A stretch of 44,773 nt of DNA from Escherichia phage vB_EcoS_UTEC10. A program made the translations under genes and the position numbers. This document shows, one piece after another, positions 6 through 44,773 of this stretch (the first letter of the stretch is position 1; each line of letters begins with the position of its first letter). The DNA is taken from the sequence record PP291582.1; one strand, given 5' to 3'. The notes beneath the pieces were generated by a model. That model did no database searches and was not told the origin of the DNA. It saw nothing but the letters and a program-made list of their open reading frames with translations.

Positions 6-155
6 CTATTTTCGGCTTACCACCCATTGCAGTAATTGATTTATGCAATCTGCTTTCGAAAACCCGTTAAAGGACTTTGAGTAAACACCGTACATCACAG
101 TCAAAAACACCGTTCCGCGGTATTCCTCAAATAAAACATCATCAAACTCAATCAT
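6..155 (-). CDS. hypothetical small protein (49 aa)
   Basis: Manually translated ORF below the track cutoff (MIEFDDVLFEEYRG...); ATG overlaps the stop of the upstream gene in an ATGA motif at 152-155; GAGGAGAG RBS upstream. Confidence 0.35.
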   Translation of the reverse strand: MIEFDDVLFEEYRGTVFLTVMYGVYSKSFNGFSKADCINQLLQWVVSRK

Positions 156-1531: not shown

Positions 1532-1560
1532 AATATAATAGGGTCGTAGGTAATAGTCAA
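1532..1560 (-). promoter_or_regulatory. sigma70-like promoter (TTGACT-N17-TATATT) for the leftward small-gene operon
   Basis: Minus-strand reading gives TTGACT, a 17-nt spacer and TATATT; shares the TATAATAGGG core of the repeated promoter element. Confidence 0.4.
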
Positions 1561-1614: not shown

Positions 1615-1697
1615 TAAAACTGGAGAGTAGAGGGATGGAACAGGAGGTGATTTAAGTATCGTCGGATTAGTCTCAGGTGTCAATTGGTAAAATAAAA

Positions 1698-28999: not shown

Positions 29000-29029
29000 T
29001 CACTTACACCAACAATGGAGGAATTTAAA

Positions 29030-29221
29030 ATGTCAAGTTTACCAGTTTCATTAATTCTGTTTGCACTTCTCGCCTATTTCGCGCCTTTCCTGGTTGCATA
29101 CTTCCGTAATCATAAAGCGAAGTTGGCAATATTCATGGCCAATCTGTTTCTTGGTTGGATTCTGTTGCCGTGGGTATTCATTTTAATCTGGGCTTGCAAC
29201 TCGAACGTGAAAGAGAAGTAA
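29030..29221 (+). CDS. small two-TM membrane protein, superinfection-immunity (Imm)-like
   Basis: Internal ATG with GGAGGAA RBS; 63 aa; NLFLGWILLPWVFILIWA resembles the conserved motif of small superinfection-immunity proteins. Confidence 0.5.
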   Translation: MSSLPVSLILFALLAYFAPFLVAYFRNHKAKLAIFMANLFLGWILLPWVFILIWACNSNVKEK

Positions 29222-29258
29222 GCTACTATAAGACAAATCCTAAGCACGAGGAATAAGC

Positions 29259-30871: not shown

Positions 30872-31425
30872 TGGCTAAGGTAATTATTCTTAATGGCCCT
30901 GCGGGTTGCGGGAAAGACACGCTTGCTAGGGAGCTGGTAGAAATGGGCTTTGCAAAAGGAACTACCAGTTTCAAGAATCCGATGTTCAATATTGCGCTGG
31001 CGGCGTTAGGCCCCGATACTTACCACGAGTTTCTCGACGGCTACGACGACCGGGCGCGGAAAGAAAAGCCGGAAGGCTTCCTTAACGGGTTGTCTCGGCG
31101 TCAGTTCATGATTGCCATTTCTGAGCAATTCATTAAACCGGTATTCGGTGACGATTATTTCGGTAAATATCTCGCTGAAAACTTGCCTGACGGCGACGAA
31201 GTTTTTGTAGTGTCCGACGGTGGATTCGCCAGTGAAGTGGTCCCTATCGTCGCCGCAGGGCATGACGTAAGAATTGTTCGCTTACACAGAGACGGCTATA
31301 CGTTCATCGGCGATAGCCGGGAGTATCTGTATGATGTTAGTGGCGTAAAAGATTACGACATCTACATCATACCGGGTGACGTTAAATCCAACGTCATAGA
31401 CATTGCTCTAAAATTAGGTTTGTAA
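30871..31425 (+). CDS. P-loop kinase (T4 gp1 dNMP-kinase-like, or polynucleotide-kinase-like)
   Basis: Walker A GPAGCGKDT near the N-terminus; overall layout resembles T4 gp1 (SGKDT Walker A, RLHRDG region). Confidence 0.65.
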   Translation: MAKVIILNGPAGCGKDTLARELVEMGFAKGTTSFKNPMFNIALAALGPDTYHEFLDGYDDRARKEKPEGFLNGLSRRQFMIAISEQFIKPVFGDDYFGKYLAENLPDGDEVFVVSDGGFASEVVPIVAAGHDVRIVRLHRDGYTFIGDSREYLYDVSGVKDYDIYIIPGDVKSNVIDIALKLGL

Positions 31426-31429
31426 GAAA

Positions 31430-31455
31430 AAGGCCCCGAAAGGGGCCTTAGTTTT
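31430..31455. terminator. bidirectional Rho-independent terminator (AAGGCCCC-GAAA-GGGGCCTT)
   Basis: Same stem and AGTTTTA flank as the 19060-19086 terminator; overlaps the major tail gene stop. Confidence 0.65.
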
Positions 31456-32620: not shown

Positions 32621-32622
32621 AT

Positions 32623-33036
32623 TCACAGCCTCTTGGTGAATGCAATAAAGTTAATTGACAATGGTCGTTTGGCCCATCCGTTTTCTACAATCAGCGGCCC
32701 CAGGCTAACCGATTGAACCTCGGCGCAGATGTCGTTACGTGAAAATGACTTACCTGCTTTAAACGCCGTGTTAAGTAAGTCTGCCATTTTATTGATTGGC
32801 GCGCTACCTTTCACCGATGCGTAGTTAATGTCTACCTGATAAACACCGGCGCGTTGTTCCGTGAAGAACAAATCAGCCTGCTCGGTATCCGCAAGTAGCA
32901 TGTAACTTGCCAGATACGGCGTATCGGTTGACGTCGGCGCGTCAATATTTTCAAGCGCAACCTTGATGCCGTTGGTGGTTCCGAAGGCTACCAGCGGCAC
33001 ATCGAACGCTTTGGTTAAGTCTTCAAAGTAGCCCAT
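32623..33036 (-). CDS. tail terminator / tail completion protein
   Basis: 137 aa; synteny immediately upstream of the major tail gene. Confidence 0.45.
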   Translation of the reverse strand: MGYFEDLTKAFDVPLVAFGTTNGIKVALENIDAPTSTDTPYLASYMLLADTEQADLFFTEQRAGVYQVDINYASVKGSAPINKMADLLNTAFKAGKSFSRNDICAEVQSVSLGPLIVENGWAKRPLSINFIAFTKRL

Positions 33037-33431
33037 TATTTCACCTTGTTGGCTTCTTCGTTAATGAGTTGCTGGAAGCGAGACACATTAGTCCTGACAA
33101 CCCCGGCTGGCGCCTGTTGCGACCAACCGTACTCCAGCCGTTGCGCATACGGCAGGTTATTAGTAAGTGTGAACTCGCGCCAGTCGGCGGCTTTCAGTAC
33201 GAAACTTGTAGCGTTTCCGGTTGCAGTGTTTCCTGATTTATCCGTAGCATCTGTAATCCCGGAAGCAGGAGTACCACCAGACGCCATCCAGTTCATACGA
33301 AAGCGGCCAGTGTCTACCGGACTCGCCTTTATGATAGCGGAAAACAGCTTGATAGACACCTGACGCATCACCTTCTCAGGGTTCTTCTTCGCCTTTTCCA
33401 CGAACTTAGAGACGTCAAGCGCGAAACTCAT
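33036..33431 (-). CDS. head-tail joining / neck protein
   Basis: 131 aa; PYAQRLEYGW motif; synteny. Confidence 0.45.
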   Translation of the reverse strand: MSFALDVSKFVEKAKKNPEKVMRQVSIKLFSAIIKASPVDTGRFRMNWMASGGTPASGITDATDKSGNTATGNATSFVLKAADWREFTLTNNLPYAQRLEYGWSQQAPAGVVRTNVSRFQQLINEEANKVK

Positions 33432-33787
33432 TTTCTCACCTGAATAAAGTAGGCCACGACATCATCGTTAACCATCTTCTTCTCAATAGCTACGACAGAC
33501 CATTGCTCGCCGCCGAATTGCACCTTGTCTTCCATCTTCGGGACGACACCGCAATCCGCTTTAACAATCATGTCGCCAGCCTGAATCGTCGTACCGTTTA
33601 CCAGTCCAGCGTTTACCGGAACCGGAACAGCTTTCAACAGCAACACTTCATCGTCAGACCAGACGTACTCACCGAGAACTTCATCCCATACTTTCGAGCC
33701 AGCGCGAATCAGAGATACCGTGCTGCCGAATTTGGTTAGCAGGCGTGTACCCACGCCCTGCATACGTTTGCTGAAAGCGGTGCTCAT
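33428..33787 (-). CDS. head-tail connector protein
   Basis: Internal ATG at 33787 with GGGGAG RBS (MSTAFSKRMQG...). Confidence 0.4.
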   Translation of the reverse strand: MSTAFSKRMQGVGTRLLTKFGSTVSLIRAGSKVWDEVLGEYVWSDDEVLLLKAVPVPVNAGLVNGTTIQAGDMIVKADCGVVPKMEDKVQFGGEQWSVVAIEKKMVNDDVVAYFIQVRK

Positions 33788-33915
33788 GTTGACTCCCCGC
33801 AAACCGCTAAAAATATAATTAGAGCTGTTGTTGATACCAGCGCAAACACTGATACCAAAAATTCGTACTTCCACAAAAAATCAGAGTTAATCCACATATT
33901 AATTATTTTACGCAT
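33784..33915 (-). CDS. small single-TM membrane protein (43 aa)
   Basis: MRKIINMWINSDFLWKYEFLVSVFALVSTTALIIFLAVCGEST; ATG overlaps the upstream stop and its stop overlaps the downstream ATG. Confidence 0.25.
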   Translation of the reverse strand: MRKIINMWINSDFLWKYEFLVSVFALVSTTALIIFLAVCGEST

Positions 33916-34529
33916 TACGCAGCCTCCAGTCTCGAAATAACCAGTAGCGCAGATGGTGCTGTGCCCCATGCAGTTACCGTAGCCGCTTGCGGGTATACGC
34001 CGCCGAAGTTACTCCCGGCGCTATCCCGCATAATCTGAACGGCAAACGTCTGGCCTGCGGTCGGGTTAATAACGACGCGAGACTCAATCGGGATTGTGGT
34101 ATCGGCGCTAACTAGTTTTGTAGCGGCGGGTGAGCCGTACTGAGCACCGTTCAGAAGAATGCGCGATAGCAAGATAGATGTACCGCTGGCCCCAGTGCGC
34201 CCAGCCTGTAACTTGATGCGAACGGCGTAGTTACCTGCGGTGTTGAACGTAACCAGCCCCGCGGCATTAATCATTACAGGGTCGGATGCGCTACCCTGTG
34301 CAGCTCCAAAAGTTAACTGCAACGCCGTGTTCGTTGCGGTGGGCACTTGTATCACGGTCGACGCTGCGCGGAGAACTTCAACCTCTTTAACACCGGGAGT
34401 GGCGTAAATAGGTGAGTCCGCCATCTGCGTCATTACCTCGCGTAGCTTCGCGGGTGTGATGGCACCGTTGGTGTTATCGGGGAGATTCGCGCCGATGAGG
34501 GTGAACATCTCTGATTTAGTCTTCGCCAT
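33915..34529 (-). CDS. virion structural protein
   Basis: 204 aa Ala/Thr/Gly-rich protein in the connector region. Confidence 0.45.
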   Translation of the reverse strand: MAKTKSEMFTLIGANLPDNTNGAITPAKLREVMTQMADSPIYATPGVKEVEVLRAASTVIQVPTATNTALQLTFGAAQGSASDPVMINAAGLVTFNTAGNYAVRIKLQAGRTGASGTSILLSRILLNGAQYGSPAATKLVSADTTIPIESRVVINPTAGQTFAVQIMRDSAGSNFGGVYPQAATVTAWGTAPSALLVISRLEAA

Positions 34530-34531
34530 TT

Positions 34532-35044
34532 TTAACCCCGGTACACATTAAATGAGAAGCCATTGTTAAGACCACCACACAGTAACGGGCGTAAGGCGTC
34601 GTCCGCAGCGGTAATCGCGGTTGTAGCGCCGCTGCTGCCGTTGTTGAAGTATGTCACTGTTACTGCGCCCTCAACACGCTCAGTCTGCACGGAACGCCCG
34701 TCAGAGTTGGCCCGCACTTCCGTGCCCGCGCCATATGTGGCGGAGGCGATTACCTGCGCAAGAATTACCTGTTTCGGGATAACATTATCCGCTACCGGGA
34801 ATCCGTTTAACATAACACCGGTACGAGGGTATGCCAGAGACTGTTCAGCGGATACACGACGACCGCACATCTGCGGTTCTGCAAGCCCGACATAAGTAGC
34901 GCCGTTGCGCAGGGCAACTTCAGCTGCGGTATCGTCTTCCGGTAGCTCAAGGCCATAATTAGCCGCTAACGCTCGGGCGTCAGCCAGACTAATGTAACTG
35001 TCAGCATTAGGGACGATTTCACCCGTTTCCACGATTAGCGGCAT
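34532..35044 (-). CDS. head-tail adaptor / head completion protein
   Basis: 170 aa; synteny downstream of capsid-associated genes. Confidence 0.45.
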   Translation of the reverse strand: MPLIVETGEIVPNADSYISLADARALAANYGLELPEDDTAAEVALRNGATYVGLAEPQMCGRRVSAEQSLAYPRTGVMLNGFPVADNVIPKQVILAQVIASATYGAGTEVRANSDGRSVQTERVEGAVTVTYFNNGSSGATTAITAADDALRPLLCGGLNNGFSFNVYRG

Positions 35045-35047
35045 AAA

Positions 35048-35227
35048 TTATTCCTCTGATTTACGGCGACGACGCTTAGCACCACCGCCGTTGTTGTGCG
35101 CTTCTTCGTTGTCCGGTTGAGACGCAACCAGTTCATCCGCTTCTACAACACCGCGAACTGGCATCACCTGGCCGTTAACAACGTCAACGTGTGTGTACTT
35201 TTCGCGGATTACGTAATTATCTGCCAT
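35048..35227 (-). CDS. small protein with basic C-terminal tail (59 aa)
   Basis: Manually translated (MADNYVIREKYTHVDVVNGQVMPVRG...GGGAKRRRRKSEE); AAGGAAAGG RBS. Confidence 0.4.
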   Translation of the reverse strand: MADNYVIREKYTHVDVVNGQVMPVRGVVEADELVASQPDNEEAHNNGGGAKRRRRKSEE

Positions 35228-35263
35228 GACCTTTCCTTATTACGGCCCCGAAGGGCCGTTGTA

Positions 35264-35614
35264 TTAAGACACAGTTGCTACGGTGCTGCTGGAGATAATA
35301 TTACCATATGCATCGTGAACAACCACTTTATACGTACCAGAATCGGCGGTAGTGGTTGACGCTTTAGCATAGGAAGCAGCGTTTGCCCCGGCGATAGCGT
35401 TGTTGTTCTTGTACCACTGGTAGGAATATGGCTCCAGGCCACCAGTTACTGCGACGGTCAGGGTCATAGTCTGCCCTGCCGTAACTGCGGTGGTAGCCGC
35501 GGGCGCGGTAGAAAAAGATGCTGGTGAGATATTTGCCATGTCGATTTCTACTTGACCATCGGCCGGGGAGTCGTCTGAGACACCAGTAATGCGGCGTTTA
35601 ATTACATCAACCAT
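35264..35614 (-). CDS. Ig-like domain protein (probable capsid decoration)
   Basis: YSYQWYKNNNAIAGANAASY...DSGTYKVVVHD is a classic Ig-like pattern. Confidence 0.5.
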   Translation of the reverse strand: MVDVIKRRITGVSDDSPADGQVEIDMANISPASFSTAPAATTAVTAGQTMTLTVAVTGGLEPYSYQWYKNNNAIAGANAASYAKASTTTADSGTYKVVVHDAYGNIISSSTVATVS

Positions 35615-35626
35615 TTTTAAGCTCCT

Positions 35627-35926
35627 TTAGCTTACAGTTCCTGCGTTTTTAAGCGCAGTCAACAGATTTGCTACGGTAGTACGCAGCGCGGTAACATCGG
35701 TTCGCAGTTTGTTGTACTCGGCTACAAGCGCGTCGAACTCGGCTTTAGTCGGTTCGGCAGCGGACTGCGCCCCGGCTGCGGCGGTAATGGCCGCGGGTGC
35801 AGCTACGGTAGCTGACTTTTTAACCCCACCAACTACGCTGGTAGTAGCAGGCGTGACTGGGATATCAAAGTCGCCGAAATCGACATTCTGAAGGCTGCGC
35901 GGCAAGCCTTTTCCGGTCTTGGCCAT
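35627..35926 (-). CDS. Ala-rich structural protein (possible head decoration)
   Basis: 99 aa directly downstream of the major capsid gene. Confidence 0.45.
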   Translation of the reverse strand: MAKTGKGLPRSLQNVDFGDFDIPVTPATTSVVGGVKKSATVAAPAAITAAAGAQSAAEPTKAEFDALVAEYNKLRTDVTALRTTVANLLTALKNAGTVS

Positions 35927-35985
35927 AATTTACCTCTTAGTAAATGAAAAGAGGGACCGAAGTCCCTCTCGATTATATCTTAACC

Positions 35986-37035
35986 TTAAGCCCCTACACC
36001 AGTTACCAGGAAGGCAATCGGTACGTGCTTACGCTCAACCACACGATTCCAGTTGGAGGCGTTAGCCAGGTCCTGCCAGGAAGCGGAGCGTGCAACAGTC
36101 TCGGTGCCATTCCCAGTGATTACTGCGCTGGTGAAGCTGTAGCCAAACGGATGCAGCAGCCAGGTCTTACGGGTCCACAGGGTTTCAACGCCGCCACCGT
36201 TACCGCGGGACGCTTCGCGCTCGTATTCCAGCGGGTTAGACGGATTGCCTTCACCGTAACCGATAGCGCCGTTGCCGAAGATGATGGAGATGAACTTGCG
36301 GCTCGGGCCAGTTCCGACCACGGTCATGCTGTCATCAACAATCACACGGTAGCCCTGGTAGGTGGCGAACAAGGTGTCGTTGTCGGCGTCTCTGATGAAG
36401 TCGATAAGTTGCTGCTTACGCGCCTGCGCATAAACGAAGCTGTGCATCGCGATAGCGCCCAGCACTTCACCGCCGTTGCCCATCAGCGCATCGCCCATAG
36501 TCTGGGTAGCGTCGATGAATGCGCCAGCGTCGAAGCCCAGAGAAGCAGACACGTCGATAACCATATCGTTCTGCGTATGGTATTCATCGGTAGCGGCTAC
36601 GTTGTCGTTGTACAGACCGAGCGCGGTAGCAATCAGACGGCGTTGCGCCTGGCGCTGCCAGAAGTTATCCAGGCGAGAAGCTACGGATTGCAGCGGGTTC
36701 TGGCTGGTAAGTTCTACAGTCAGGTCCGCCTGACCGAAACCCTCGTTCAGGTACGCCACGCGCGCCATCATCTCGCCGGTCTGCACGTTACGCGGGGTGG
36801 CGATGTCCTGGTATACGTCGTTCGAGTAGTTAGGCTCGATAGAAGTATCAATCGCTTTCCAGAAAGGAATATTAGCGACGTTGGACGGGCCGCGGGCAAT
36901 CTCGGCAGCGTATGGGGTCGGGGTCAGAATACCAGACTGGAAGAATGCGGTTTTTTCTACCGGGTCCTCGGTCATATAAGACGCCAGGACCGGGATGTTG
37001 CCAGTTACGATATCGCCGATAGTGGTAATTGCCAT
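35986..37035 (-). CDS. major capsid protein
   Basis: 349 aa immediately downstream of the scaffold gene. Confidence 0.75.
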   Translation of the reverse strand: MAITTIGDIVTGNIPVLASYMTEDPVEKTAFFQSGILTPTPYAAEIARGPSNVANIPFWKAIDTSIEPNYSNDVYQDIATPRNVQTGEMMARVAYLNEGFGQADLTVELTSQNPLQSVASRLDNFWQRQAQRRLIATALGLYNDNVAATDEYHTQNDMVIDVSASLGFDAGAFIDATQTMGDALMGNGGEVLGAIAMHSFVYAQARKQQLIDFIRDADNDTLFATYQGYRVIVDDSMTVVGTGPSRKFISIIFGNGAIGYGEGNPSNPLEYEREASRGNGGGVETLWTRKTWLLHPFGYSFTSAVITGNGTETVARSASWQDLANASNWNRVVERKHVPIAFLVTGVGA

Positions 37036-37037
37036 TA

Positions 37038-37739
37038 TTATTTCCTCAGGGCTTTAAGTTGCCGTTCAAATTCGGCAGGGTTCGATTTATACAGGGCTAA
37101 ACGCTCTGCTTCACTCATGTCTTTAAACGCTGGTGCGGCCCCGCCGCCTTTGCTACCGGAAGCCCCGCCGCCGGAAGCTGCATTTGCTTTAATCAAATGC
37201 GAAAACGCTTTGTGTTCACGCAGGTATTTGCGGAACTGTTCCGGGTCAGTCGTGATTACATTGCCGTCTGCACCAACAAACTTAGTAACCACATCATCGC
37301 CTTCGAACTCAGTCTTAACGAACGGTGCAAGAATGTCTACCGCTTCCGGGGTGATGAAATCACCTGCGAAAGAGCCTAACACCGCTTTACGTTCGCTGCC
37401 GAGGATGCGCTCTGCCATTTTGGAGATGCGACCATCTTTCTCGGCTAACACCGGGTCATACTGGCTACGAATCGTCTTTTCAAACTCGTCCATCTTACCG
37501 GCGGCCTTTAACGCCTCCTGGTGTGCGCGCTGCCGTTCTTCTTCAGCCTCTTTTGCTTTGCGAGCGGCTTCTTTCTTCTCCGCCAGCAATGCTTCCTGAT
37601 TGGCCTTAAGCCCGGCAACTTCTTTCTCAATCAGCGCCTGAACTTCTTCGGCTGTGAACATTTTCGGCGCGTCACCGCCACCGGCTTTATCTTCTGCTCC
37701 AGCTTCTTCCTGGAACGGATAACGTAAAAAACGATTCAT
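37038..37739 (-). CDS. scaffolding protein
   Basis: Internal ATG (MNRFLRYPFQEE...); highly charged helical protein rich in Ala/Glu/Lys immediately upstream of the capsid gene; track start 37793 is TTG. Confidence 0.65.
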   Translation of the reverse strand: MNRFLRYPFQEEAGAEDKAGGGDAPKMFTAEEVQALIEKEVAGLKANQEALLAEKKEAARKAKEAEEERQRAHQEALKAAGKMDEFEKTIRSQYDPVLAEKDGRISKMAERILGSERKAVLGSFAGDFITPEAVDILAPFVKTEFEGDDVVTKFVGADGNVITTDPEQFRKYLREHKAFSHLIKANAASGGGASGSKGGGAAPAFKDMSEAERLALYKSNPAEFERQLKALRK

Positions 37740-37821
37740 AGTCAGTATGTCCCCTGGACGTTGGAATCCGGGCCCCCCGGATTTACATGTCAAGAATAAA
37801 TTATTCCAACATGCAAGGCAA

Positions 37822-38085
37822 CTATTCCAGAATATTCCTCACGTAGTCCTGCAACATGAACACTTTCAGACGCAGTTGCCGCACGCATTCGGCGTTCTGA
37901 ACGTCAATAGCTAAGTCCTGGTCAGCATCGCTACTTGGCGTGGCCAGTTTGCACGGTGGCTGCATCATCGTCGTATCCGGAGATGGAATTGGCGTTGGCG
38001 ACGGCGCGGGACTTGAGCAGGACGCGAGCATCGTCAAAAGTGCACACGCTGCGACCAGGCGTTTTAATGTACTTAACGACTTCAC
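37822..38085 (-). CDS. o-spanin (Rz1-like outer-membrane lipoprotein)
   Basis: LLTMLASC lipobox followed by a Pro-rich sequence; starts inside the i-spanin gene in another frame and extends past it. Confidence 0.55.
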   Translation of the reverse strand: MKSLSTLKRLVAACALLTMLASCSSPAPSPTPIPSPDTTMMQPPCKLATPSSDADQDLAIDVQNAECVRQLRLKVFMLQDYVRNILE

Positions 38086-38317
38086 GGGTAATTACCTCTG
38101 ATTTCGTCTTGCCTTCGTTGTCAGCGGCGGCTGCCTTTGATTCATCCTGCTGCTGCCGTTGTGTTTTCTTCGCTAACTCAGCCTGTGCTTTCTGCTGTTG
38201 CTGCGAAACGAGATTAGCGCGGCCTTCGTCCCAACCAGCGCGGTACTGGTAGATGCCGTGTGCGTATAACAGGATGATGAAACATGCTCCCGCTACGACA
38301 GTTGCTTTAAGATTCAT
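37931..38317 (-). CDS. i-spanin (Rz-like)
   Basis: N-terminal TM helix (ATVVAGACFIILLYAHGIY) followed by a Gln/Ala/Lys-rich coiled-coil region. Confidence 0.55.
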   Translation of the reverse strand: MNLKATVVAGACFIILLYAHGIYQYRAGWDEGRANLVSQQQQKAQAELAKKTQRQQQDESKAAAADNEGKTKSEVITREVVKYIKTPGRSVCTFDDARVLLKSRAVANANSISGYDDDAATVQTGHAK

Positions 38318-38636
38318 GTTTCTCCTTTCTCGATAAGTAAAGCCCCGCCATAAAGCGGGGCGCTAGTCCTTATCATTTAAACATAGAAACGGCGTAATCT
38401 CAGTAAACCCGGTACTTTTTACACAAGCAATAGAGTATGGCCCTTCCGAACGCGTCAGCGTAACTACACTCGGACTTAACGTCCGGCTCCGTTACCTGCC
38501 CGCGCCGCGGTCGCTTGTTCATACTTCACAAGCTCAGGTGGAGCTTATCATATTTTCAGTGAAAAGTCAACTATTCGAATAGTTTATTCCAACATTTACA
38601 ATTGAGCGGAATAACTGGAATACGTAAACAAATAGT

Positions 38637-38665
38637 TTGCGGACACCAATATAATAGGGTACTAT
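38637..38665 (+). promoter_or_regulatory. cassette promoter TTGCGG-N17-TACTAT with embedded AATAG-GGTA-CTATT repeat
   Basis: Near-identical to the promoters at 28971 and 40809. Confidence 0.55.
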
Positions 38666-38691
38666 TCATTACAACGAAACGAGGAGGGTGT

Positions 38692-39231
38692 ATGCTCACT
38701 AAACGTTCAGAAGCCATAGCCGCTGGTGATGATTATTACTTCACGGGAAAACCGTGTAAACGTGGGCATGTTGCGAAAAGGCATGTCCGCACCGGGTGCT
38801 ATGAGTGCGCTAAAGAGATACAAAAATCGTACCGAGAACGCAACGTTGTTTCTTGGGCGGCGAAAAACGCAAAATGGAGGCAAGAAAATAGAGACCGAAT
38901 AGCCGAAATTGACGCAGAGTACCGTAAGAAAAACAAAACCGCCAGGAAAGCCCAAAGGCTAAAGTATAAAACGGCAAAAAGAGCCAGGAGTATAAACATC
39001 AGGAATGATGAATTTGACCTATTAGTATTCGAAGAAGCGCAGGAGCTATGTCAACTACGAGCGGGCGAAACAGGTTTCGTATGGCATATCGACCACATGC
39101 TGCCGCTGCGTGCTAAAACTGTCTCGGGGCTGCATGTCGCAGAAAACATACAAGTTATCCCCGCGGTTCTGAATCTCTTAAAAGGTAATAAATTAATTTT
39201 CACCGAGAGAGGCTCTTGGTTGTCTTCCTGA
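38692..39231 (+). CDS. HNH endonuclease (free-standing)
   Basis: Internal ATG with GAGGAGGG RBS; GDDYYFTGKPCKRGH zinc-binding N-terminus and HIDHMLPLRAK...N HNH motif. Confidence 0.75.
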   Translation: MLTKRSEAIAAGDDYYFTGKPCKRGHVAKRHVRTGCYECAKEIQKSYRERNVVSWAAKNAKWRQENRDRIAEIDAEYRKKNKTARKAQRLKYKTAKRARSINIRNDEFDLLVFEEAQELCQLRAGETGFVWHIDHMLPLRAKTVSGLHVAENIQVIPAVLNLLKGNKLIFTERGSWLSS

Positions 39232-39236
39232 AATTG

Positions 39237-39259
39237 AGGCCCCTTAATGGGGCCTTTTA
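39237..39259 (+). terminator. Rho-independent terminator (AGGCCCC-TTAAT-GGGGCCT)
   Basis: GC stem followed by TTTTAT. Confidence 0.55.
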
Positions 39260-39721
39260 TCATTCTGGCTTAGTAACCTTCGCCGCTTTACTCACAGCCT
39301 CTACTCCATCAGCATCGGTAACTTTAACGAAGTATTCACCGACAGCATTAACTGTCAGAGACAAAGCCTCTTCCGGGGCGTTTACCACTTCCTTACCGTC
39401 TTTGTACCAGGTCAGCGCATACGGCGCTTTGCCCGCCTTAACTTCAACAGTAAGAGTCGCGCTGCCGTCTACCAATTCGGTGTCTTTCGGTTGTACAGAG
39501 AAATACACATCACCAGCGTCCGCCAGATACGGAATCTCGTAAAGCATACCAGCCGCCGGAAGCGCAATACCGGTTTTATCTGCAAACGGCATATCGTCTA
39601 CAGGTGTACCCAGTACACTTTCGTCCTCAATAAATACCACGTTCTCGCCAGAGCCAGACACGCGGGTGTACTGGACAACACGACGCGACGGTACATCAGT
39701 TACTTTGAAAAAGCCCATCAT
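39260..39721 (-). CDS. Ig-like (BIG2-type) domain virion protein
   Basis: C-terminal YALTWYKDGKEV...GEYFVKVTDADG Ig-like pattern; downstream of head morphogenesis gene. Confidence 0.5.
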   Translation of the reverse strand: MMGFFKVTDVPSRRVVQYTRVSGSGENVVFIEDESVLGTPVDDMPFADKTGIALPAAGMLYEIPYLADAGDVYFSVQPKDTELVDGSATLTVEVKAGKAPYALTWYKDGKEVVNAPEEALSLTVNAVGEYFVKVTDADGVEAVSKAAKVTKPE

Positions 39722-40764
39722 TATTCCCCTTTCAGATAATCAGCAACACGTTTATCGAGTTCCGCCATCTGCTTAAGCGTGAGCGGATTCCCGAAACCAT
39801 CTACAGATATTACGCGAAACTCCTCTGGTGAGATACCGCTGTTACGGAAAATCTTGCCTCGCACCGGCCCGAGCGCCTGGTCCTGGAACCATGCCGGTTG
39901 CTGTTTCAGGAACTCATAATAGGTGGTGTCAGCGCTTACCTGAGTACCGCCGTTCGCACCCTTAGCCGCGCGTTTTGCACCTTTATCCAGGAAGTCGAAT
40001 TCTGAACTGATTACCGGGGCCGTGCACGACCGACAATTCGGATGGGCAGGGGGCATCGGCCCCTTACCTATTTCCCACGTCATTCCGTCCCTGGCTCTGC
40101 AAATCGTGCTGGTACGGCTGTCCAGCGTCGACACCCACTCGTACTTCTCAATGATGTCGTCGTTCTGGCGGTATGTCTCGTTGCGGGCTTCGTTGGACAC
40201 GTGAGCCAGCGCGGTACGGATTACTGTAGCCGCGTTGCGTTCAGAGATGTCAGCCAGTCCCCCAGCGCCTACGACATTCTTAACAATCTGCCGTGTTGTT
40301 TGGCCCTGAACAAAGCCCATCTTAACGCCGGTTACCAGGCGCGACACTTCTGTTTCACCCCAGCCGTCCATCAGCTTAGTGAAGTCAACAGGCTTGTCGT
40401 TCAACGCCAGAGGTTGAAACTCGGCAGCAGCCCACACTTGCTCGGCAGTAGGCGTAACAAATTCCGCATTAACGTTGGCGGTCAGAGTCTTTACGTTCCA
40501 TTCGGCCTCATACGCCGCCAGCTCCTTAAGGTCTTCTGTCAGCTTTGTTTGCCAGTCGCCTGTAAACCCCGTTAGCGCTTCTTCGAGGTCGCGTAACAAT
40601 TTATTCAGACGGGCAGTGCTTCGCCCGTCGTCACCGAACAACAGCACCTGCCGTTTGATTTCGTCCCGCATTTCCTGAAGAAACGGTGCAAGGTCTTTCA
40701 CTTCGCCGGATGCAGTGCGTTGCAGCCATATCTGGTGGCTGATTAAGGATGTAAGTAAGCTCAT
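39721..40764 (-). CDS. head morphogenesis protein (SPP1 gp7 / Mu F-like)
   Basis: Internal ATG with AGGAGGG RBS; ICRARDG...PPAHPNCRSC motif characteristic of gp7/F-family minor head proteins. Confidence 0.75.
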   Translation of the reverse strand: MSLLTSLISHQIWLQRTASGEVKDLAPFLQEMRDEIKRQVLLFGDDGRSTARLNKLLRDLEEALTGFTGDWQTKLTEDLKELAAYEAEWNVKTLTANVNAEFVTPTAEQVWAAAEFQPLALNDKPVDFTKLMDGWGETEVSRLVTGVKMGFVQGQTTRQIVKNVVGAGGLADISERNAATVIRTALAHVSNEARNETYRQNDDIIEKYEWVSTLDSRTSTICRARDGMTWEIGKGPMPPAHPNCRSCTAPVISSEFDFLDKGAKRAAKGANGGTQVSADTTYYEFLKQQPAWFQDQALGPVRGKIFRNSGISPEEFRVISVDGFGNPLTLKQMAELDKRVADYLKGE

Positions 40765-41026: not shown

Positions 41027-41348
41027 GAATCACTTGAAGGTCTACGGACCCAAGGGGTTGCATTCATGGAACGGCGGGTATGACGTAAACGATGACCTGC
41101 CAATACGTAAAATAGCGCGCGCGGCGAGACGCAATGTAGAGCCTGGCGACGTGCTAGTTATACGAGATAATAATGTCATTGTTGAAGTTGAGAAAGTTCT
41201 TGGTGTGTTTCTCATAGTAATACCTGTTGATGTTGTTTTGCGTGACGCAAGGCCTTACCGAGAAGCTGGGAGCGGTAAAACTGGTAAATACACATACGGC
41301 AGGATTAAGATACATAAAACACATCTTGATAAATTTAAGGCCCCGTGA
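41004..41348 (+). CDS. hypothetical protein
   Basis: Internal ATG of track ORF 40983..41348 (MSLRNNLKNHL...); stop codon lies in the terminator loop. Confidence 0.45.
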   Translation: MSLRNNLKNHLKVYGPKGLHSWNGGYDVNDDLPIRKIARAARRNVEPGDVLVIRDNNVIVEVEKVLGVFLIVIPVDVVLRDARPYREAGSGKTGKYTYGRIKIHKTHLDKFKAP

Positions 41349-41356
41349 GGGGCCTT
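41337..41356 (+). terminator. Rho-independent terminator (AAGGCCCC-GTGA-GGGGCCTT)
   Basis: Same stem as the terminators at 19060 and 31430. Confidence 0.6.
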
Positions 41357-41358: not shown

Positions 41359-42846
41359 TTATTGCTGCGGATTCTGTTGGTCTTGCGGGTTAGCCGACTG
41401 CGGAATCTCCCCCGCCACCTGAGTAACCGCGCCCATCGGCAACGGTGCATCCTCGATAGCGTTCTGAATATCCTCATCCGTCCAGTCAGTTACCCCAGCT
41501 TTACGCAATGCCGCGTAGTAAGCGGTAGCTGGTAGCAGGCCTGCGTTAATATCCGCCATCCACTGAGCACGGTCCTGAGCGGTCATCGGTTGCAGGAAGA
41601 ACTCCATGTTCAGTTTGAACTCAACCTCTGTGTCCTCACGCAACCCTAGCATCGCAGCCACCCAGCGCAACGCATCGGTGTACGCCATGCTTACGTTACG
41701 TGCGATTGTCGCCATAACGGATGTATCCGCTCCACGTTGCAGGCGGGCCGATTCCGCGGTGATTTGCTGCGTCGGGGTGATAAGCTGCGCGCCAATCTGG
41801 ATTGCCTGATTCTCTTTATCCAGCATGTTCTGTTTGGCGAGGTTGTTCTCTCCCGCCTGAACCAGAAACGCATTGCCGCCGTAGCCAATGTTATGGCCTG
41901 AGCGCGACCCCATGCGCACGCCGTGAGGGTTGGCTTCTTTCCATTGCTCCATGCTCATGTTTTCACCAGGGGCGATGAACAGAGTTGGCTGGCCTACAAC
42001 AAAGCTGGACTCCTCATTGTCCGCGCTGTTGCGGAAATGCCCGATATTAAGTTCAGCCAACGGCAACAAAGGGGCATCGTCGATGGTTGCGTCGTTGTTG
42101 CTCGCTCCAATGAACGTGAAGGGGATTTTGCCGCGTAACTGTTCGCCAAGTTCCGGGAAGATTTCGATTACTTCACCCTGTGCACCACCTTCTGCATCGA
42201 AGCGATAGATTCGCTGGCGGTAGTGACCGTCAATAAGGTCAAGGACGCGGTATTGCTCACCGAACTTTGTCTCAAATTCCGCGCCGGGTTCTGAGTATTC
42301 CCATACTTCTCGCAACACAACCATTGTCACACGGTTAACTGAACCTACGCGAGTCAGTCGCCAGTTGATGATGTTCTCTGCGGTATAGAATGCGATGACC
42401 GGGTTTAATAAGCCCGCATTCTGTTCTGCCGCCGTCGCCGCGGCTGTCTCCGGGGCGTCCACCAGCAACCCGCCACGGCCTACTGAGTCAATCTCCATCA
42501 GCGTATCCTGCGCGTGCTGCCACAGCCCGACACCAGAACCGTCGGCGTTACGTAATAGGTACTCAAGCTCAGGCGGGATAATCTGCTCGGGGTCTTTGCG
42601 CATCACGGACCCGACCATCCCCGCCAGCGTTCTCTTGGTGAAGTTGTAGCAGATAGCGCCGTTCTCGTATTCTTCCTGGCGCTGTGCTGCATATTTAGGG
42701 TCCGGCTCGTTCTTCCCGACGTTGCGCAGATAGCGAATAAGGTCGCCTTCCAGCGCGTGGCGTACCTTCTGCCATTTATCGAAGTGATGCAGCCATTCCC
42801 GGTGTTTTGTCTTAACACCCTGATTCTGACCGTTCATAGTTAACAT
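41359..42846 (-). CDS. portal protein
   Basis: 495 aa immediately downstream of TerL; AAGAGGA RBS. Confidence 0.7.
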   Translation of the reverse strand: MLTMNGQNQGVKTKHREWLHHFDKWQKVRHALEGDLIRYLRNVGKNEPDPKYAAQRQEEYENGAICYNFTKRTLAGMVGSVMRKDPEQIIPPELEYLLRNADGSGVGLWQHAQDTLMEIDSVGRGGLLVDAPETAAATAAEQNAGLLNPVIAFYTAENIINWRLTRVGSVNRVTMVVLREVWEYSEPGAEFETKFGEQYRVLDLIDGHYRQRIYRFDAEGGAQGEVIEIFPELGEQLRGKIPFTFIGASNNDATIDDAPLLPLAELNIGHFRNSADNEESSFVVGQPTLFIAPGENMSMEQWKEANPHGVRMGSRSGHNIGYGGNAFLVQAGENNLAKQNMLDKENQAIQIGAQLITPTQQITAESARLQRGADTSVMATIARNVSMAYTDALRWVAAMLGLREDTEVEFKLNMEFFLQPMTAQDRAQWMADINAGLLPATAYYAALRKAGVTDWTDEDIQNAIEDAPLPMGAVTQVAGEIPQSANPQDQQNPQQ

Positions 42847-42858: not shown

Positions 42859-44109
42859 TTAAAGTGCGAAAGTCACCGGGATGTTGATTACGGGTTTAAC
42901 CACCGGCATCTCGTAAACTACAGGATAGCCGAGAGCATCTGCCATATGGTCAATGATGCCGTCTTTAGCGGGCTCTCCGTTATCGTCGTATGCCTGCTGC
43001 TCCAGCGTCTTCGCTATCTCAGGGCATAAGTGGTCGTTAACCCACAGCTTACCTTTTTCCAGCGCGGTATTCACCGCTAAAACACGGTCTTTAACCGGGG
43101 GGTTGGCTGATTTAGCGCGAACATCAAAACCGGCCTGCTGGAGTAACGCGATATCTGAGATTGATGCTGAGTTGGTCTTGCGGTTCTTACCGCTGGCGTC
43201 GGGGTAAACGACAATGCGGTGGCCTTGCGACTTCCACTTCTCGGTAATTACGCGCACAGTATCTGGCGTATCGAACAAGCCTTTCAGTTCAGCCACCGCG
43301 TGCCATCCGTCTTTACGCTGCACATACACTGCGCTTGCGTTCTTCGTAACGTTGAAGTCCTGCCCGATGTACAGTGTGTCGCCGGGTTGAATTGTCTCTT
43401 TGCTGCGGTGCTTATGGCGGTCGTATGCGTAATACACGCTGCCGGACGTCAGGTTTACGAACTCACCATTCAGATACGCGTTAATCAGTTGCGCCGGGTA
43501 AGTCTCTGTCAGCGAGCTAATGTAATCCGGGGGAAGGAATCGCGCATTCTCGTGAGTTGATGCCTGCACCATTGAGTAACTCGGTGTGGGGTTCTCTTTG
43601 AACTTGGCGTAGACGAACTTGAACCCTTCCGGCGTCGTGGTGACGGAGATGTGGTTGGTTACACCAGGAATAACAAGTCGCATACGGGCTACGATTTTAT
43701 TCCACGCCAGCTCCGCTTTTTCCCGGCTCAATACGTCCAACTCATCCACGACCGCAGCGGCGATCTTGAAACCGACTATCGAGCCGGGGTTATCCATTGA
43801 ACGGCAGATAACGGTCCCGAGCACAGTCTTACCGCGAGTTACAACGACTTCTTTGTCGCCGGATTTAACCAGCACATCAAGGCCAAGCAGGTTAGCCGCT
43901 TCCTCGAATGTCGGGTAGAAGATGTCACGTATGGCCGGGTATGTCGGGCCGAAGTAGCCCAGGCGCGTACCGGGGTGCTTGAGCATAAACGTAAGCAGGT
44001 CGAGACATCCGACGAATGTCTTGCCGCTACCGAAGCCGCCGACATAGGCTTTGTACTTGTTATCGCAATTCAGGAACAGTGCCTGTGGCGCGGATAGCTG
44101 AATACTCAT
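42859..44109 (-). CDS. terL: terminase large subunit
   Basis: Walker A GGFGSGKT and Walker B-like AAAVVDELD; C-terminal nuclease-like region; ATGA overlap with the TerS gene. Confidence 0.85.
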   Translation of the reverse strand: MSIQLSAPQALFLNCDNKYKAYVGGFGSGKTFVGCLDLLTFMLKHPGTRLGYFGPTYPAIRDIFYPTFEEAANLLGLDVLVKSGDKEVVVTRGKTVLGTVICRSMDNPGSIVGFKIAAAVVDELDVLSREKAELAWNKIVARMRLVIPGVTNHISVTTTPEGFKFVYAKFKENPTPSYSMVQASTHENARFLPPDYISSLTETYPAQLINAYLNGEFVNLTSGSVYYAYDRHKHRSKETIQPGDTLYIGQDFNVTKNASAVYVQRKDGWHAVAELKGLFDTPDTVRVITEKWKSQGHRIVVYPDASGKNRKTNSASISDIALLQQAGFDVRAKSANPPVKDRVLAVNTALEKGKLWVNDHLCPEIAKTLEQQAYDDNGEPAKDGIIDHMADALGYPVVYEMPVVKPVINIPVTFAL

Positions 44110-44651
44110 TCCTCTACCTCGCCCATATTCGTTGTTACGATTTTACCTACAGGCTCCGCGACACTGAAAATAATCTCAGTCGGTGCTGTTTCTTCGGTGG
44201 ATTCAACCGGTTTCTCTTTGCCGAGACCCAGTTTAGCGGCGGCAAACGTAGCAGAAATACCGGCGGCCCCTGTCTCGGTGAAGTATGCCTCTTCCAACGC
44301 CTGCGCGGTTTCATATGCTTCTGCAAATGCGGGAATCTCGCGCAACCACAGCTTAATAATCGGGATAGTGACGCCGATGTGCAAGGCAAAACGGGCCAAT
44401 GACGGTGGTTTATCCTGAATCAGCGGGCGTTCGTCACCCTTTGACGTAGGCACTAGTTCCCACGACGTGCGGTCGAAGAAACGAATCAATTCGTCGCAAT
44501 AGTCCGGGTCCCACAACGCGGCGGAATTACGGGATGATTGATAAAGGCTCTGTTTACCGCGCGGTCGTTTACGACGACGGTTTGCGCTAACAGCTTCTTC
44601 ATGTGCCGCTTGCACCACCTCTGGCGATGGCTGCTTAAGTTTCAGCTTCAT
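44106..44651 (-). CDS. terS: terminase small subunit
   Basis: Position upstream of TerL; internal ATG 44651 with AAGGGGA RBS (track ORF extends to 44690). Confidence 0.55.
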   Translation of the reverse strand: MKLKLKQPSPEVVQAAHEEAVSANRRRKRPRGKQSLYQSSRNSAALWDPDYCDELIRFFDRTSWELVPTSKGDERPLIQDKPPSLARFALHIGVTIPIIKLWLREIPAFAEAYETAQALEEAYFTETGAAGISATFAAAKLGLGKEKPVESTEETAPTEIIFSVAEPVGKIVTTNMGEVEE

Positions 44652-44749
44652 AGAATCCCCTTGCATATGCGTCTGACCATCAGAGCGCACCAGACGCGCC
44701 CTACGCGTCTAAAGGGATTATATAAGGGGATTGGGCGGGATGTACAGAA

Positions 44750-44769
44750 AAGCCCTCCGTAGAGGGCTT
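44750..44769 (-). terminator. hairpin terminator at the right end of the window
   Basis: AAGCCCTC-CGTA-GAGGGCTT followed by TTTTCT on the minus strand; would end the leftward early operon if the genome is circular/permuted. Confidence 0.4.
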
Positions 44770-44773
44770 GTGG

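What the first reader, a model, noticed from the sequence alone, without database searches (positions are those of the whole stretch)
44652..44773. Right-end control region: palindrome, TATAAT and terminator hairpin upstream of terS; window likely a circularly permuted complete genome
Upstream of terS lie a 7-bp-stem palindrome AGACGCG-CCCTA-CGCGTCT (44689-44707), a TATATAAT box (44720-44727) and a terminator hairpin (44750-44769). The leftmost minus-strand gene ends at position 6, so in a circular map the right-end hairpin would terminate the leftward early operon just before the packaging genes. The palindrome could be part of a pac/cos-proximal recognition region.
Basis: inference. Interest (0 to 1): 0.35.

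Follow-up and report, generated by a model that had tools for sequence, protein, structure and literature searches.

The report
Terminator, promoter and folded terS leader
The last 122 bases of this complete Kagunavirus phage genome hold an ordinary terminator and promoter, but the "palindrome" is the first of two RNA hairpins in a leader before the packaging genes that several phage genera share and no RNA-family library lists.

Summary
The three features exist, but two coordinates are 3 nt off. The palindrome is at 44692-44710. TATATAAT is on the minus strand, 44724..44717. The hairpin at 44750-44769 is as stated.

The window is a complete Kagunavirus (Guernseyvirinae) genome. Its end and start join exactly as in phages CR01 and GZMU_E2010, with no gap or terminal repeat. 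Relatives are reported to package by headful (pac).

Read on the terS strand, the region holds four elements:
- An intrinsic terminator that ends the upstream small-gene operon.
- A sigma-70 promoter, TGTACA-18-TATAAT.
- Two adjacent hairpins starting at the predicted +1: HP1 (the palindrome) and HP2.
- A free ribosome-binding site and the terS ATG.

The module recurs in Kagunavirus, Jerseyvirus, St162-like phages, Dhillonvirus and Eiauvirus, although TerS identity falls to about 25%. Stems covary: 9 of 19 pairs show double changes. G-U pairs outnumber A-C 47 to 4, which points to sense-strand RNA rather than a DNA site. Each genome searched has one copy, and Rfam has no match.

The terminator reading and the circular map are supported. 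The pac reading is not. The hairpins' function is inferred: mRNA stabilisation, or possibly regulation.

The parts
6..152 (-). Last gene (48 aa) of the upstream minus-strand operon. Its stop codon TAG is at 8..6, 9 nt before the terminator stem across the circular junction.
   Evidence: Translation. Matches phrog_16162, unknown function. Junction continuity shown.
44743..44769 (-). Intrinsic terminator. Stem-loop AAGCCCUC-UACG-GAGGGCUU at 44769..44750, then a U-rich tail; the run UUUUCUGU begins with the last two U of the 3' arm (44751..44744). The tail runs into the -35 hexamer.
   Evidence: Inverted repeat I5. Fold -15.2 kcal/mol, z = -3.75, 0 of 200 shuffles. Pair 16-23 changes U-A to G-C in Jerseyvirus and the loop varies freely. 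Sequences 5' of it are mosaic among relatives.
44741..44746 (-). -35 hexamer TGTACA of the terS (late) promoter.
   Evidence: Promoter scan scored 10 of 12 with an 18-nt spacer. Invariant in 37 Kagunavirus/Jerseyvirus sequences. Other lineages carry TTGCCT or TTGCCA at 17 nt, or an extended -10 TGtTATAAT.
44717..44722 (-). -10 hexamer TATAAT (TACAAT in Jerseyvirus).
   Evidence: Column identity is 0.974 against 0.848 for the spacer, whose length stays constant while its sequence diverges. A TAYAAT lies 74-82 nt before the terS ATG in all 72 loci examined.
44710..44710 (-). Predicted transcription start: an A, 7 nt after the -10 hexamer. Inferred, not mapped.
   Evidence: Inference from -10 spacing. 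In all nine representative lineages inspected by eye (sequences), HP1 begins within 0-2 nt of this position.
44691..44711 (-). HP1, the 5'-terminal RNA hairpin UAGACGCGU-AGG-GCGCGUCUG.
   Evidence: MFE fold. RNAalifold gives the same hairpin. Of 9 pairs, 5 show double changes and 97.3% of cells are paired. The AGG loop is conserved.
44667..44690 (-). HP2, the second RNA hairpin GUGCG-C-UCUGA-UGG-UCAGA-CGCAU. The apical GA-YGG-UC is conserved across genera.
   Evidence: The inner stem reads UCUGA/UCAGA in Kagunavirus, UAUGA/UCAUA in Jerseyvirus, GCCGA/UCGGC in Dhillonvirus, UGGA/UCCA in eiAU and GUGUGA/UCACAC in L088. Covariance model hit at 44665-44712, 79.6 bits, the only copy in the window.
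44656..44662 (-). Shine-Dalgarno sequence AAGGGGA of terS, unpaired in the transcript that starts at the promoter.
   Evidence: Jerseyvirus has AGAGAGGA at the same place.
44106..44651 (-). terS (181 aa), starting at ATG 44651. Some GenBank records annotate an in-frame GTG at 44690 as the start (194 aa), but this is probably not used.
   Evidence: Matches phrog_3064 terminase from residue 1. The 13 upstream codons change non-synonymously and in compensatory pairs. The frame is closed by a stop codon in Dhillonvirus and shifted in eiAU.
42859..44109 (-). terL (416 aa), with Terminase_6N and 6C domains.

Best explanation
The right end of the window, joined to its left end, is a conserved operon boundary of a circularly permuted, headful-packaged Kagunavirus genome. 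It reads on the minus strand as follows.

(1) A Rho-independent terminator (44769..44750 plus a U-tract) ends transcription of the upstream operon of lysis genes and small genes.
(2) A host sigma-70 promoter follows immediately and overlaps the U-tract: -35 TGTACA at 44746..44741, an 18-nt spacer, and -10 TATAAT at 44722..44717. It starts the long terS-terL-portal-head-tail operon at about A44710.
The Shine-Dalgarno sequence (44662..44656) and the AUG (44651) stay free.

The palindrome is therefore an RNA element, not a DNA recognition site.

Most likely function (inferred): a stem-loop at the very 5' end protects the late mRNA from 5'-end-dependent decay by RppH and RNase E. The sequence-conserved loops (AGG in HP1, GA-YGG-UC in HP2) suggest that a host or phage factor also recognises the leader.

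What is shown: the anatomy, the conservation pattern, the covariation and the strand asymmetry. What is inferred: that termination occurs, that the promoter is active, the exact start site, and what the hairpins do.
For: - Identity of the phage: the right end is 97% identical to Escherichia phage CR01, and there are hundreds of Kagunavirus and Jerseyvirus hits.
- Circle closure.
- Terminator: fold z = -3.75. The stem shows a compensatory U-A to G-C change, and a G-U in L051 that is valid only on this strand, while the loop varies. At least eight unrelated gene ends abut it in relatives, while everything 3' of it is conserved.
- Promoter: 10 of 12 match. The hexamers are conserved while the 18-nt spacer diverges at constant length. 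Five further lineages have independent solutions at the same place: TTGCCT-17-TATAAT, TTGCCA-17-TATAAT, and an extended -10 TGtTATAAT in Dhillonvirus and a Vibrio phage.
- Leader structure: two hairpins in the MFE fold and in RNAalifold on two alignments.
- Covariation: on 22 sequences from six lineages, 97.2% of cells are paired and 9 of 19 pairs have changes on both sides. None of 500 shuffles reach this, and slid controls give 22-57% paired.
- Strand asymmetry: 47 G-U cells against 4 A-C cells.
- Copy number and position: one copy in the window (79.6 bits; next hit E > 3), found at the same position in all lineages.
- Position relative to +1: HP1 begins 0-2 nt from the predicted start in the nine representative lineages inspected (sequences).
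- Constraint: HP1 and HP2 are as conserved as codon positions 1-2.
- 5'-terminal stem-loops stabilise E. coli mRNAs. This is established knowledge (ompA 5' UTR; Emory, Bouvet and Belasco 1992), recalled rather than tested here.
Against: - No transcript data exist for any of these phages; the literature search found none. The start site, termination and promoter activity are therefore predictions.
- The -35 hexamer is weak (4 of 6) and the spacer is 18 nt.
- The scan's own terminator rule did not call the hairpin.
- Much of the covariation signal comes from a few deep splits, and alignment A6 was fitted to the model, so the counts lean towards the structure.
- Simple stabiliser hairpins do not usually keep their loop sequences across genera. 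This hints at a more specific function that I cannot name.
- The sequence just after the -10 hexamer is complementary to the Shine-Dalgarno region in 4 of 9 lineages. The promoter-start model does not explain this.
Confidence: 0.65

Rival explanations
1. One reading: the palindrome and its surroundings are part of the pac site, the DNA that TerS recognises to start headful packaging.
For: - It lies next to terS, where pac sites of headful phages usually are (established knowledge).
- It is single-copy in the genome.
- It is conserved in phages with homologous TerS and TerL.
- The group packages by headful/pac (PMC6776780, PMC10783031).
- The TerS profile weakly resembles Sf6 gp1 (E 0.04).
Against: - Stems change sequence but keep pairing. 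G-U outnumbers A-C 47 to 4, so pairing holds on one strand only.
- In Jerseyvirus the DNA palindrome decays to 5 of 7 Watson-Crick positions.
- The whole conservation pattern is already accounted for by promoter plus RNA structure.
- PhageTerm found no defined termini in fBC-Eco01 (PMC9825357), and no submolar pac fragment was seen for K47 (PMC10783031).
Confidence: 0.1
2. The two hairpins are a cis-acting, factor-independent antiterminator RNA in the manner of HK022 put. It would ride on RNA polymerase and carry it through the internal terminators of the roughly 25-kb late operon.
For: - Two directly adjacent stem-loops sit at the very start of the long late operon, with conserved loops and a conserved bulge.
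- Several strong minus-strand terminator-like hairpins lie inside the operon, at 38361..38342, 35970..35949 and 31449..31430.
- None of the roughly 17 ORFs scanned at the two ends of the window matched a known antiterminator family. The rest of the genome was not annotated.
Against: - The covariance model finds nothing in HK022 24000-40751 (best E 1.5). That interval should include putL and putR, but the sites are not annotated in the record and I did not locate them.
- The hairpins are shorter than put (about 45 nt against about 65-70 nt, from memory).
- Internal promoters or partial read-through would serve equally well.
- There is no experimental support.
Confidence: 0.1
3. The leader is a translational operator or switch. 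Either a protein (TerS itself or another late protein) binds the conserved loops to tune terS-terL translation, or read-through transcripts from upstream are silenced because the segment after the -10 hexamer (AAUCCCU) pairs with the Shine-Dalgarno sequence (GGGGAUU).
For: - Loop sequences AGG and GA-YGG-UC are conserved across genera.
- RNAalifold proposes the long-range helix with one C-G to U-A double change.
- The duplex is stronger than shuffles in Kagunavirus (1/500), Jerseyvirus (2/500), Dhillonvirus (8/500) and L088 (7/500).
Against: - The complementarity is absent or weak in L079, eiAU, L086, St162 and AH01.
- Eight sequences break the covarying pair.
- The anti-SD segment lies upstream of the predicted start and downstream of a strong terminator, so few transcripts would contain it.
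- No binding protein is identified.
Confidence: 0.12
4. The palindrome is a DNA operator for a dimeric repressor sitting on +1 of the late promoter, which would delay late gene expression.
For: A perfect 7-5-7 inverted repeat lies at +1 to +19 of the predicted promoter in Kagunavirus.
Against: - The DNA symmetry is lost in Jerseyvirus and in St162-like phages, where only wobble pairs remain.
- Arm sequences differ completely in Dhillonvirus and eiAU while the pairing persists.
- Strand asymmetry of 47 G-U against 4 A-C.
Confidence: 0.03
5. The HP2 region is coding: terS starts at the in-frame GTG or ATG 39 nt upstream (window 44690), giving a 194-aa TerS as annotated in several GenBank records.
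For: - An in-frame (G/A)TG with no stop codon before the ATG is present in the Kagunavirus, Jerseyvirus and St162 sequences examined.
- Several records annotate terS this way or begin at that codon.
Against: - 6 of the 13 codons differ non-synonymously between Kagunavirus and Jerseyvirus, and two of those changes are a compensatory stem pair.
- In Dhillonvirus the frame ends in TAA, and in eiAU it is out of frame.
- A strong Shine-Dalgarno sequence precedes the downstream ATG.
- The phrog_3064 profile begins at that ATG.
Confidence: 0.03

Closest known systems
Rho-independent terminator followed directly by a sigma-70 promoter at an operon boundary (an ordinary phage or bacterial intergenic region)
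   Same: A GC-rich stem-loop plus U-tract after a stop codon, followed by -35/-10 hexamers with 17-18 nt spacing. The elements are conserved while the spacer is free to vary.
   Different: Nothing essential differs. The U-tract overlaps the -35 hexamer, and the boundary coincides with a recombination (mosaic) junction among relatives.
5'-terminal stabilising stem-loops of E. coli mRNAs (ompA 5' UTR type)
   Same: The hairpin begins 0-2 nt from the predicted 5' end of a long mRNA, and the ribosome-binding site downstream is unstructured.
   Different: Here there are two hairpins with sequence-conserved loops maintained across at least five phage genera. No half-life data exist.
HK022 put antiterminator RNAs (putL, putR)
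   Same: Two adjacent stem-loops in the nascent RNA near the start of a long phage operon that contains internal terminators.
   Different: No similarity was detected by the covariance model. The element is shorter, present once per genome rather than twice, and has no functional evidence.
pac sites of headful phages (SPP1 pacL-pacC-pacR, P22 pac in gene 3, P1 pac)
   Same: A single-copy conserved element at or next to terS in a headful-packaging phage.
   Different: The evolutionary pattern is that of a one-strand RNA structure (covariation, G-U wobbles) rather than a conserved double-stranded recognition sequence. No end-mapping data place a cut here.

Membership tests
Intrinsic (Rho-independent) terminator | GC-rich stem-loop immediately followed by a U-tract on the transcribed strand | tested here: met
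   On the minus strand: AAGCCCUC-UACG-GAGGGCUU, with the U-rich run UUUUCUGU beginning in the last two U of the 3' arm. Fold -15.2 kcal/mol, z = -3.75. The + strand tail is TTGTGGTG, so it works in one direction only.
Intrinsic (Rho-independent) terminator | Lies just downstream of a gene end on the same strand, and the stem is kept by compensatory change | tested here: met
   The stop codon at 8..6 is 9 nt before the stem across the junction. U-A changes to G-C in Jerseyvirus and to G-U in L051, while the loop varies.
Intrinsic (Rho-independent) terminator | RNA 3' ends are generated at the U-tract | not testable with these tools
   Needs Term-seq or in vitro transcription.
Sigma-70 promoter | -35 and -10 hexamers with 16-18 nt spacing | tested here: met
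   TGTACA-18-TATAAT scores 10 of 12. A single-sequence match is at chance level (1 found, 0.8 expected).
Sigma-70 promoter | Hexamers conserved, spacer length constant, spacer sequence free | tested here: met
   Column identities: -35 1.00, -10 0.974, spacer 0.848. Other lineages carry equivalent promoters at the same place.
Sigma-70 promoter | Mapped transcription start | not testable with these tools
   No transcriptome was found for Kagunavirus, Jerseyvirus or Dhillonvirus.
pac site (headful packaging initiation) | Virion DNA ends or the first cut of the packaging series map to the site | not testable with these tools
   No reads are available. The literature gives only the packaging mode, not a position (PMC6776780, PMC10783031, PMC9825357).
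pac site (headful packaging initiation) | Conserved as a double-stranded DNA recognition sequence | tested here: not met
   Stem sequences are replaced with pairing retained. G-U 47 against A-C 4.
cos site or direct terminal repeats | Defined ends, or a repeat at both ends of the genome record | tested here: not met
   The longest suffix that equals a prefix is 5 nt, and relatives carry it as an internal tandem. Relatives are reported as headful.
HK022 put antiterminator RNA | Sequence and structure similarity to putL or putR | tested here: not met
   Model R2 over HK022 24000-40751 gave a best E of 1.5. This tests one direction only, and put is not annotated in the record.
HK022 put antiterminator RNA | Promotes terminator read-through in cis | not testable with these tools
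   Needs transcription assays.
Any Rfam 15 family | Match to a curated covariance model | tested here: not met
   No hit at E <= 1 over the CR01 junction region (L001 3700-4200), both strands.
5'-terminal stabilising stem-loop | The hairpin starts within a few nt of the mRNA 5' end | tested here: inconclusive
   Met if the start is 7 +/- 1 nt after the -10 hexamer, in all nine representative lineages inspected (sequences). The start itself is predicted, not mapped.
Conserved structured RNA (cis-regulatory leader) | Covariation supporting the helices, on the sense strand, at a conserved genomic position | tested here: met
   Single copy upstream of terS in all lineages.

The most novel reading that the evidence does not exclude
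The HP1-HP2 leader would be a new class of cis-acting RNA shared by Guernseyvirinae, Dhillonvirus and Eiauvirus that controls the whole late operon. It could be a put-like antiterminator that lets host RNA polymerase read through the internal terminators of the 25-kb packaging, head and tail operon. Alternatively it could be the binding site of a still unknown late regulator. Either way it would act as the timing and level switch for late genes in these virulent siphophages, for which I found no late regulator among the ORFs scanned or in the literature searched.
Probability: 0.15. Interest if true: 0.7.

Novelty: new variant of a known kind. Interest (0 to 1): 0.4.

Why it matters
The terminator, the promoter and the circular closure are routine. 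They mainly tell annotators three things:
- This genome record is complete.
- It was opened by convention in front of terS.
- terS starts at ATG 44651, not at the GTG at 44690.

The less routine result concerns the 'palindrome'. It belongs to a two-hairpin mRNA leader that is kept, with compensatory changes, in several genera whose TerS proteins are only about 25% identical. It is absent from Rfam.

This makes it a concrete and cheap target for working out how late genes are controlled in Kagunavirus, Jerseyvirus and Dhillonvirus. These phages are widely isolated for therapy and are used as synthetic-biology chassis. It is also a caution for anyone re-engineering the terS upstream region.

Tried and rejected
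- Rfam scan of the junction region: no match.
- Covariance-model search for extra copies in the window: none. This rules out a repeated promoter-leader or several put-like sites.
- Model against the HK022 early and late regions: nothing.
- IMG/VR pattern scan for the motif in other contexts: 36 of 39 unfamiliar contigs were chance pattern matches, and the other 3 are St162-like.
- Distant TerS relatives in a Vibrio phage and a Klebsiella phage lack the leader.
- The third copy of CAGACGC (44669-44675) is not an alternative partner of the palindrome arm, so there is no attenuator-like switch. It is the 3' strand of HP2, as covariation shows.
- Coding of the HP2 region as an N-terminal TerS extension: rejected.
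- DNA operator reading: rejected on strand asymmetry.
- CsrA-type sites: the loops carry AGG or UGG rather than GGA (inspection only).
- Record start positions in GenBank as a clue to pac: they reflect conventions, either the annotated long terS start at -39 or 'opened in front of terS'.
- TerL against PDB sequences: no hit.
- Literature search for transcript maps of these genera: none found.

Full report
**What the window is.** The right-end kilobase is 97% identical to Escherichia phage CR01. It matches more than 160 Kagunavirus and Jerseyvirus (Guernseyvirinae) records. The genes at the right end run leftward:
- terS 44651..44106 (phrog_3064);
- terL 44109..42859 (Terminase_6N/6C);
- portal 42846..41359.

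The finding therefore has to be read on the minus strand.

**Checking the observation.** The palindrome AGACGCG-CCCTA-CGCGTCT is real and unique, but it lies at 44692-44710, 3 nt to the right of the stated place. 'TATATAAT' is not on the + strand at 44720-44727, which reads ATATAAGG. It is on the minus strand at 44724..44717. The hairpin at 44750-44769 is exactly as stated. The leftmost minus-strand gene ends with TAG at 8..6.

Taken alone, the promoter match and the leader fold are not above chance. The promoter scan found 1 site against 0.8 expected, and the leader fold has z = -1.7. The terminator fold is above chance: z = -3.75, with 0 of 200 shuffles folding as well.

**Circular map.** Window end plus start reads GAGGGCTTGTGG|TGTGGCTATTTTCGG. 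The same string is internal and contiguous in CR01 and in GZMU_E2010. Window 1-24523 is colinear with CR01 39719->14283, directly next to the right-end match that stops at CR01 39720. The only terminal overlap is the 5-nt TGTGG, which relatives carry as a genuine tandem. The record is therefore a complete genome opened 122 nt upstream of terS.

Published work on relatives reports headful/pac packaging from PhageTerm:
- Shashou (PMC6776780).
- Snoke (PMC6776784).
- Jerseyvirus K47, described as P1-like headful with a circular-type restriction pattern (PMC10783031).
- fBC-Eco01, where no termini were found (PMC9825357).

**Comparative anatomy.** I aligned the 200 nt upstream of terS from 40 distinct IMG/VR relatives. 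Upstream of the hairpin the sequences fall into at least eight unrelated classes, so this is a mosaic junction. From the hairpin to the ATG they align without trouble.

Within that stretch the conservation is patterned (mean pairwise column identity):

| Element | Identity |
|---|---|
| U-tract plus -35 | 1.00 |
| -10 | 0.974 |
| HP1 | 0.965 |
| HP2 | 0.956 |
| Promoter spacer | 0.848 |
| Discriminator | 0.853 |
| terS codon position 3 | 0.771 |
| terS codon positions 1-2 | about 0.97 |

**Terminator.** On the minus strand the region reads AAGCCCUC-UACG-GAGGGCUU. The U-rich run UUUUCUGU begins with the last two U of the 3' arm, and the stem begins 9 nt after the stop codon across the junction. 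Jerseyvirus has GCCCGC...GCGGGC, a U-A to G-C double change. One sequence has G-U there, and the loop varies freely. The + strand has no T-tract.

That operon contains two holin genes (2883-2310) and an endolysin (2383-1847), then about nine small genes, including a NinH-like one. Promoter-like sites at 1683..1655 and 1560..1532 could drive the small genes separately. Whether the operon is 'early' is not shown.

**Promoter.** TGTACA-18-TATAAT scores 10 of 12. In Jerseyvirus the -10 hexamer is TACAAT, and the spacer sequence is almost wholly different but still 18 nt long. Other lineages have equivalent promoters in the same place:
- St162-like phages, TTGCCT-17-TATAAT.
- Contigs L086 and L088, TTGCCA-17-TATAAT.
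- Dhillonvirus, an extended -10 TGtTATAAT directly abutting the terminator U-tract. A Vibrio phage has the same layout.

A TAYAAT lies 74-82 nt before the terS ATG in all 72 loci examined. This is the signature of a real promoter. Its activity and start site are inferred.

**The palindrome is an RNA hairpin.** The RNA from the predicted start (A44710, 7 nt after the -10 hexamer) folds into two adjacent hairpins:
- HP1, UAGACGCGU-AGG-GCGCGUCUG (44711..44691).
- HP2, GUGCG-C-UCUGA-UGG-UCAGA-CGCAU (44690..44667).

The AAGGGGA Shine-Dalgarno sequence and the AUG remain unpaired. The third CAGACGC copy (44669-44675) is simply the 3' strand of HP2.

The same two hairpins sit in the same place in several groups:
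- Jerseyvirus.
- St162-like and GRNsp27 phages.
- Pantoea phage AH01.
- Dhillonvirus.
- Edwardsiella phage eiAU-183.
- Two unclassified contigs.

Their TerS proteins are only 24-27% identical to the window's. The stems are rewritten but stay paired:

| Lineage | HP1 arms | HP2 inner stem |
|---|---|---|
| Kagunavirus | AGACGCG / CGCGUCU | UCUGA / UCAGA |
| Jerseyvirus | AGACGCU / GGUGUCU | UAUGA / UCAUA |
| Dhillonvirus | AGAUGGC / GCCGUCU | GCCGA / UCGGC |
| L079 | AGGUGGU / GCCACCU | same as Dhillonvirus |
| eiAU | GGCGGGCC / GGUCCGCC | UGGA / UCCA |
| L088 | CGCGC / GCGCG (5 bp) | GUGUGA / UCACAC |

The loops stay the same: AGG in HP1 and GA-YGG-UC at the apex of HP2.

A covariance model built from 11 Kagunavirus and Jerseyvirus sequences finds one copy in the window (44665-44712, 79.6 bits) and nothing else below E = 3. 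It also detects the other lineages at the expected position.

On the resulting 22-sequence alignment:
- 97.2% of cells pair.
- 9 of 19 pairs carry changes on both sides.
- No shuffle out of 500 reaches the observed values.
- Slid registers give only 22-57% pairing.
- RNAalifold returns the same structure.

That alignment was fitted to the model, and the changes derive from a handful of deep splits, so the numbers are generous. The hand-read sequences tell the same story.

G-U pairs number 47 against 4 A-C. The pairing therefore works on the terS-sense strand only. This argues for RNA and against a double-stranded operator, a cruciform or an antisense element. Rfam 15 has no match.

**What it does.** The anatomy is well supported. 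The function is inferred.

A hairpin starting 0-2 nt from the 5' end is the classic arrangement that protects E. coli mRNAs from 5'-end-dependent decay. This is established knowledge and was not tested here. I take it as the most likely role for HP1.

The conserved loops and the second hairpin suggest something more specific. I considered four options.

(a) pac site. This is disfavoured by the RNA-type evolution but not excluded, because no end-mapping position exists for this group.

(b) put-like antiterminator. The late operon does contain strong internal terminator-like hairpins at 38361..38342, 35970..35949 and 31449..31430. However, the model finds nothing in the HK022 regions searched, and there is no functional evidence.

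(c) Translational operator or switch. The segment just after the -10 hexamer (AAUCCCU) is complementary to the Shine-Dalgarno sequence (GGGGAUU). RNAalifold proposes that helix with one double change. The duplex beats shuffles in 4 of 9 lineages but not in the others. It could exist only in transcripts that read through the terminator.

(d) N-terminal TerS extension from the in-frame GTG at 44690. This is rejected. The codons change non-synonymously and in compensatory pairs, and the frame is closed or shifted in Dhillonvirus and eiAU. That alternative start does explain why Jersey, SETP3 and others begin their records 39 nt upstream of the ATG, and why some records annotate a 194-aa TerS.

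**Range.** An IMG/VR pattern scan returned 103 stretches, of which 80 were returned as loci. Of 39 contigs not already known to me, only 3 carry the motif by the model, and they score like the St162-like leaders. Distant TerS homologues in a Vibrio phage and a Klebsiella phage lack it. The element seems confined to the Guernseyvirinae, Dhillonvirus and Eiauvirus cluster.

The operon boundary itself is ordinary. The two-hairpin terS leader is a conserved structured RNA that appears undescribed: it has no match in Rfam 15, and I did not search the literature for the motif itself. Its function is unknown, and the finding is of moderate interest.

Noticed in passing
window 44652-44690 (minus strand): An in-frame GTG at 44690 (ATG in many relatives) lies 39 nt upstream of the terS ATG. 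Several GenBank records annotate the long 194-aa form or start their sequence at that codon (Jersey, SETP3-like). Substitution patterns indicate that it is leader RNA, not coding sequence.
   Followed up: yes
window 44713-44724 versus 44654-44663 (minus strand): The -10 and discriminator segment (AUAAUCCCU) is complementary to the Shine-Dalgarno region (AGGGGAUU), -10.8 kcal/mol. This is significant against shuffles in Kagunavirus, Jerseyvirus, Dhillonvirus and L088, but not in five other lineages. It could silence terS on transcripts that read through the terminator. Unexplained.
   Followed up: partly
window 38342-38361, 35949-35970, 31430-31449 (minus strand); hairpin 41337-41356: Strong terminator-like hairpins lie inside the long late operon. 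One follows the presumed major capsid gene, and the one at 31430-31449 is bidirectional. Late transcription must either read through them or restart.
   Followed up: no
junction 44770-44773 and 1-160, and the equivalent position in L003-L052: The terminator marks a mosaic boundary. At least eight unrelated gene ends abut it in relatives, while the 120 nt downstream are nearly invariant.
   Followed up: partly
window 1532-1683 (minus strand): Two good sigma-70-like sites (TTGACA-17-GATACT and TTGACT-17-TATATT) lie just downstream of the endolysin gene. They may drive the small-gene cluster that the right-end terminator closes.
   Followed up: no
window 10201-10230 and 12321-12349 (+ strand): These are the two best promoter matches in the genome (TTGACA-17/18-TATAGT, 11 of 12), inside the replication-gene block.
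   Followed up: no
window 29259-31425 (+ strand): Three + strand ORFs (376, 161 and 184 aa) are embedded in the minus-strand structural block and bounded by the bidirectional hairpin at 31430-31449. This looks like an inserted, oppositely transcribed cassette. Not annotated here.
   Followed up: no
L092/L091 (Vibrio phage 1.013.O, MG592398.1 record end and start): A distant TerS relative has the same 'terminator directly followed by extended -10 TGtTATAAT' layout before terS, but a short leader with no hairpins.
   Followed up: partly
window 1-44773: No record in the 50,697-genome phage collection is identical. The best match is CR01, at 94-97% identity over about 87% of the left 25 kb. The window is therefore a distinct Kagunavirus isolate or assembly.
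   Followed up: partly
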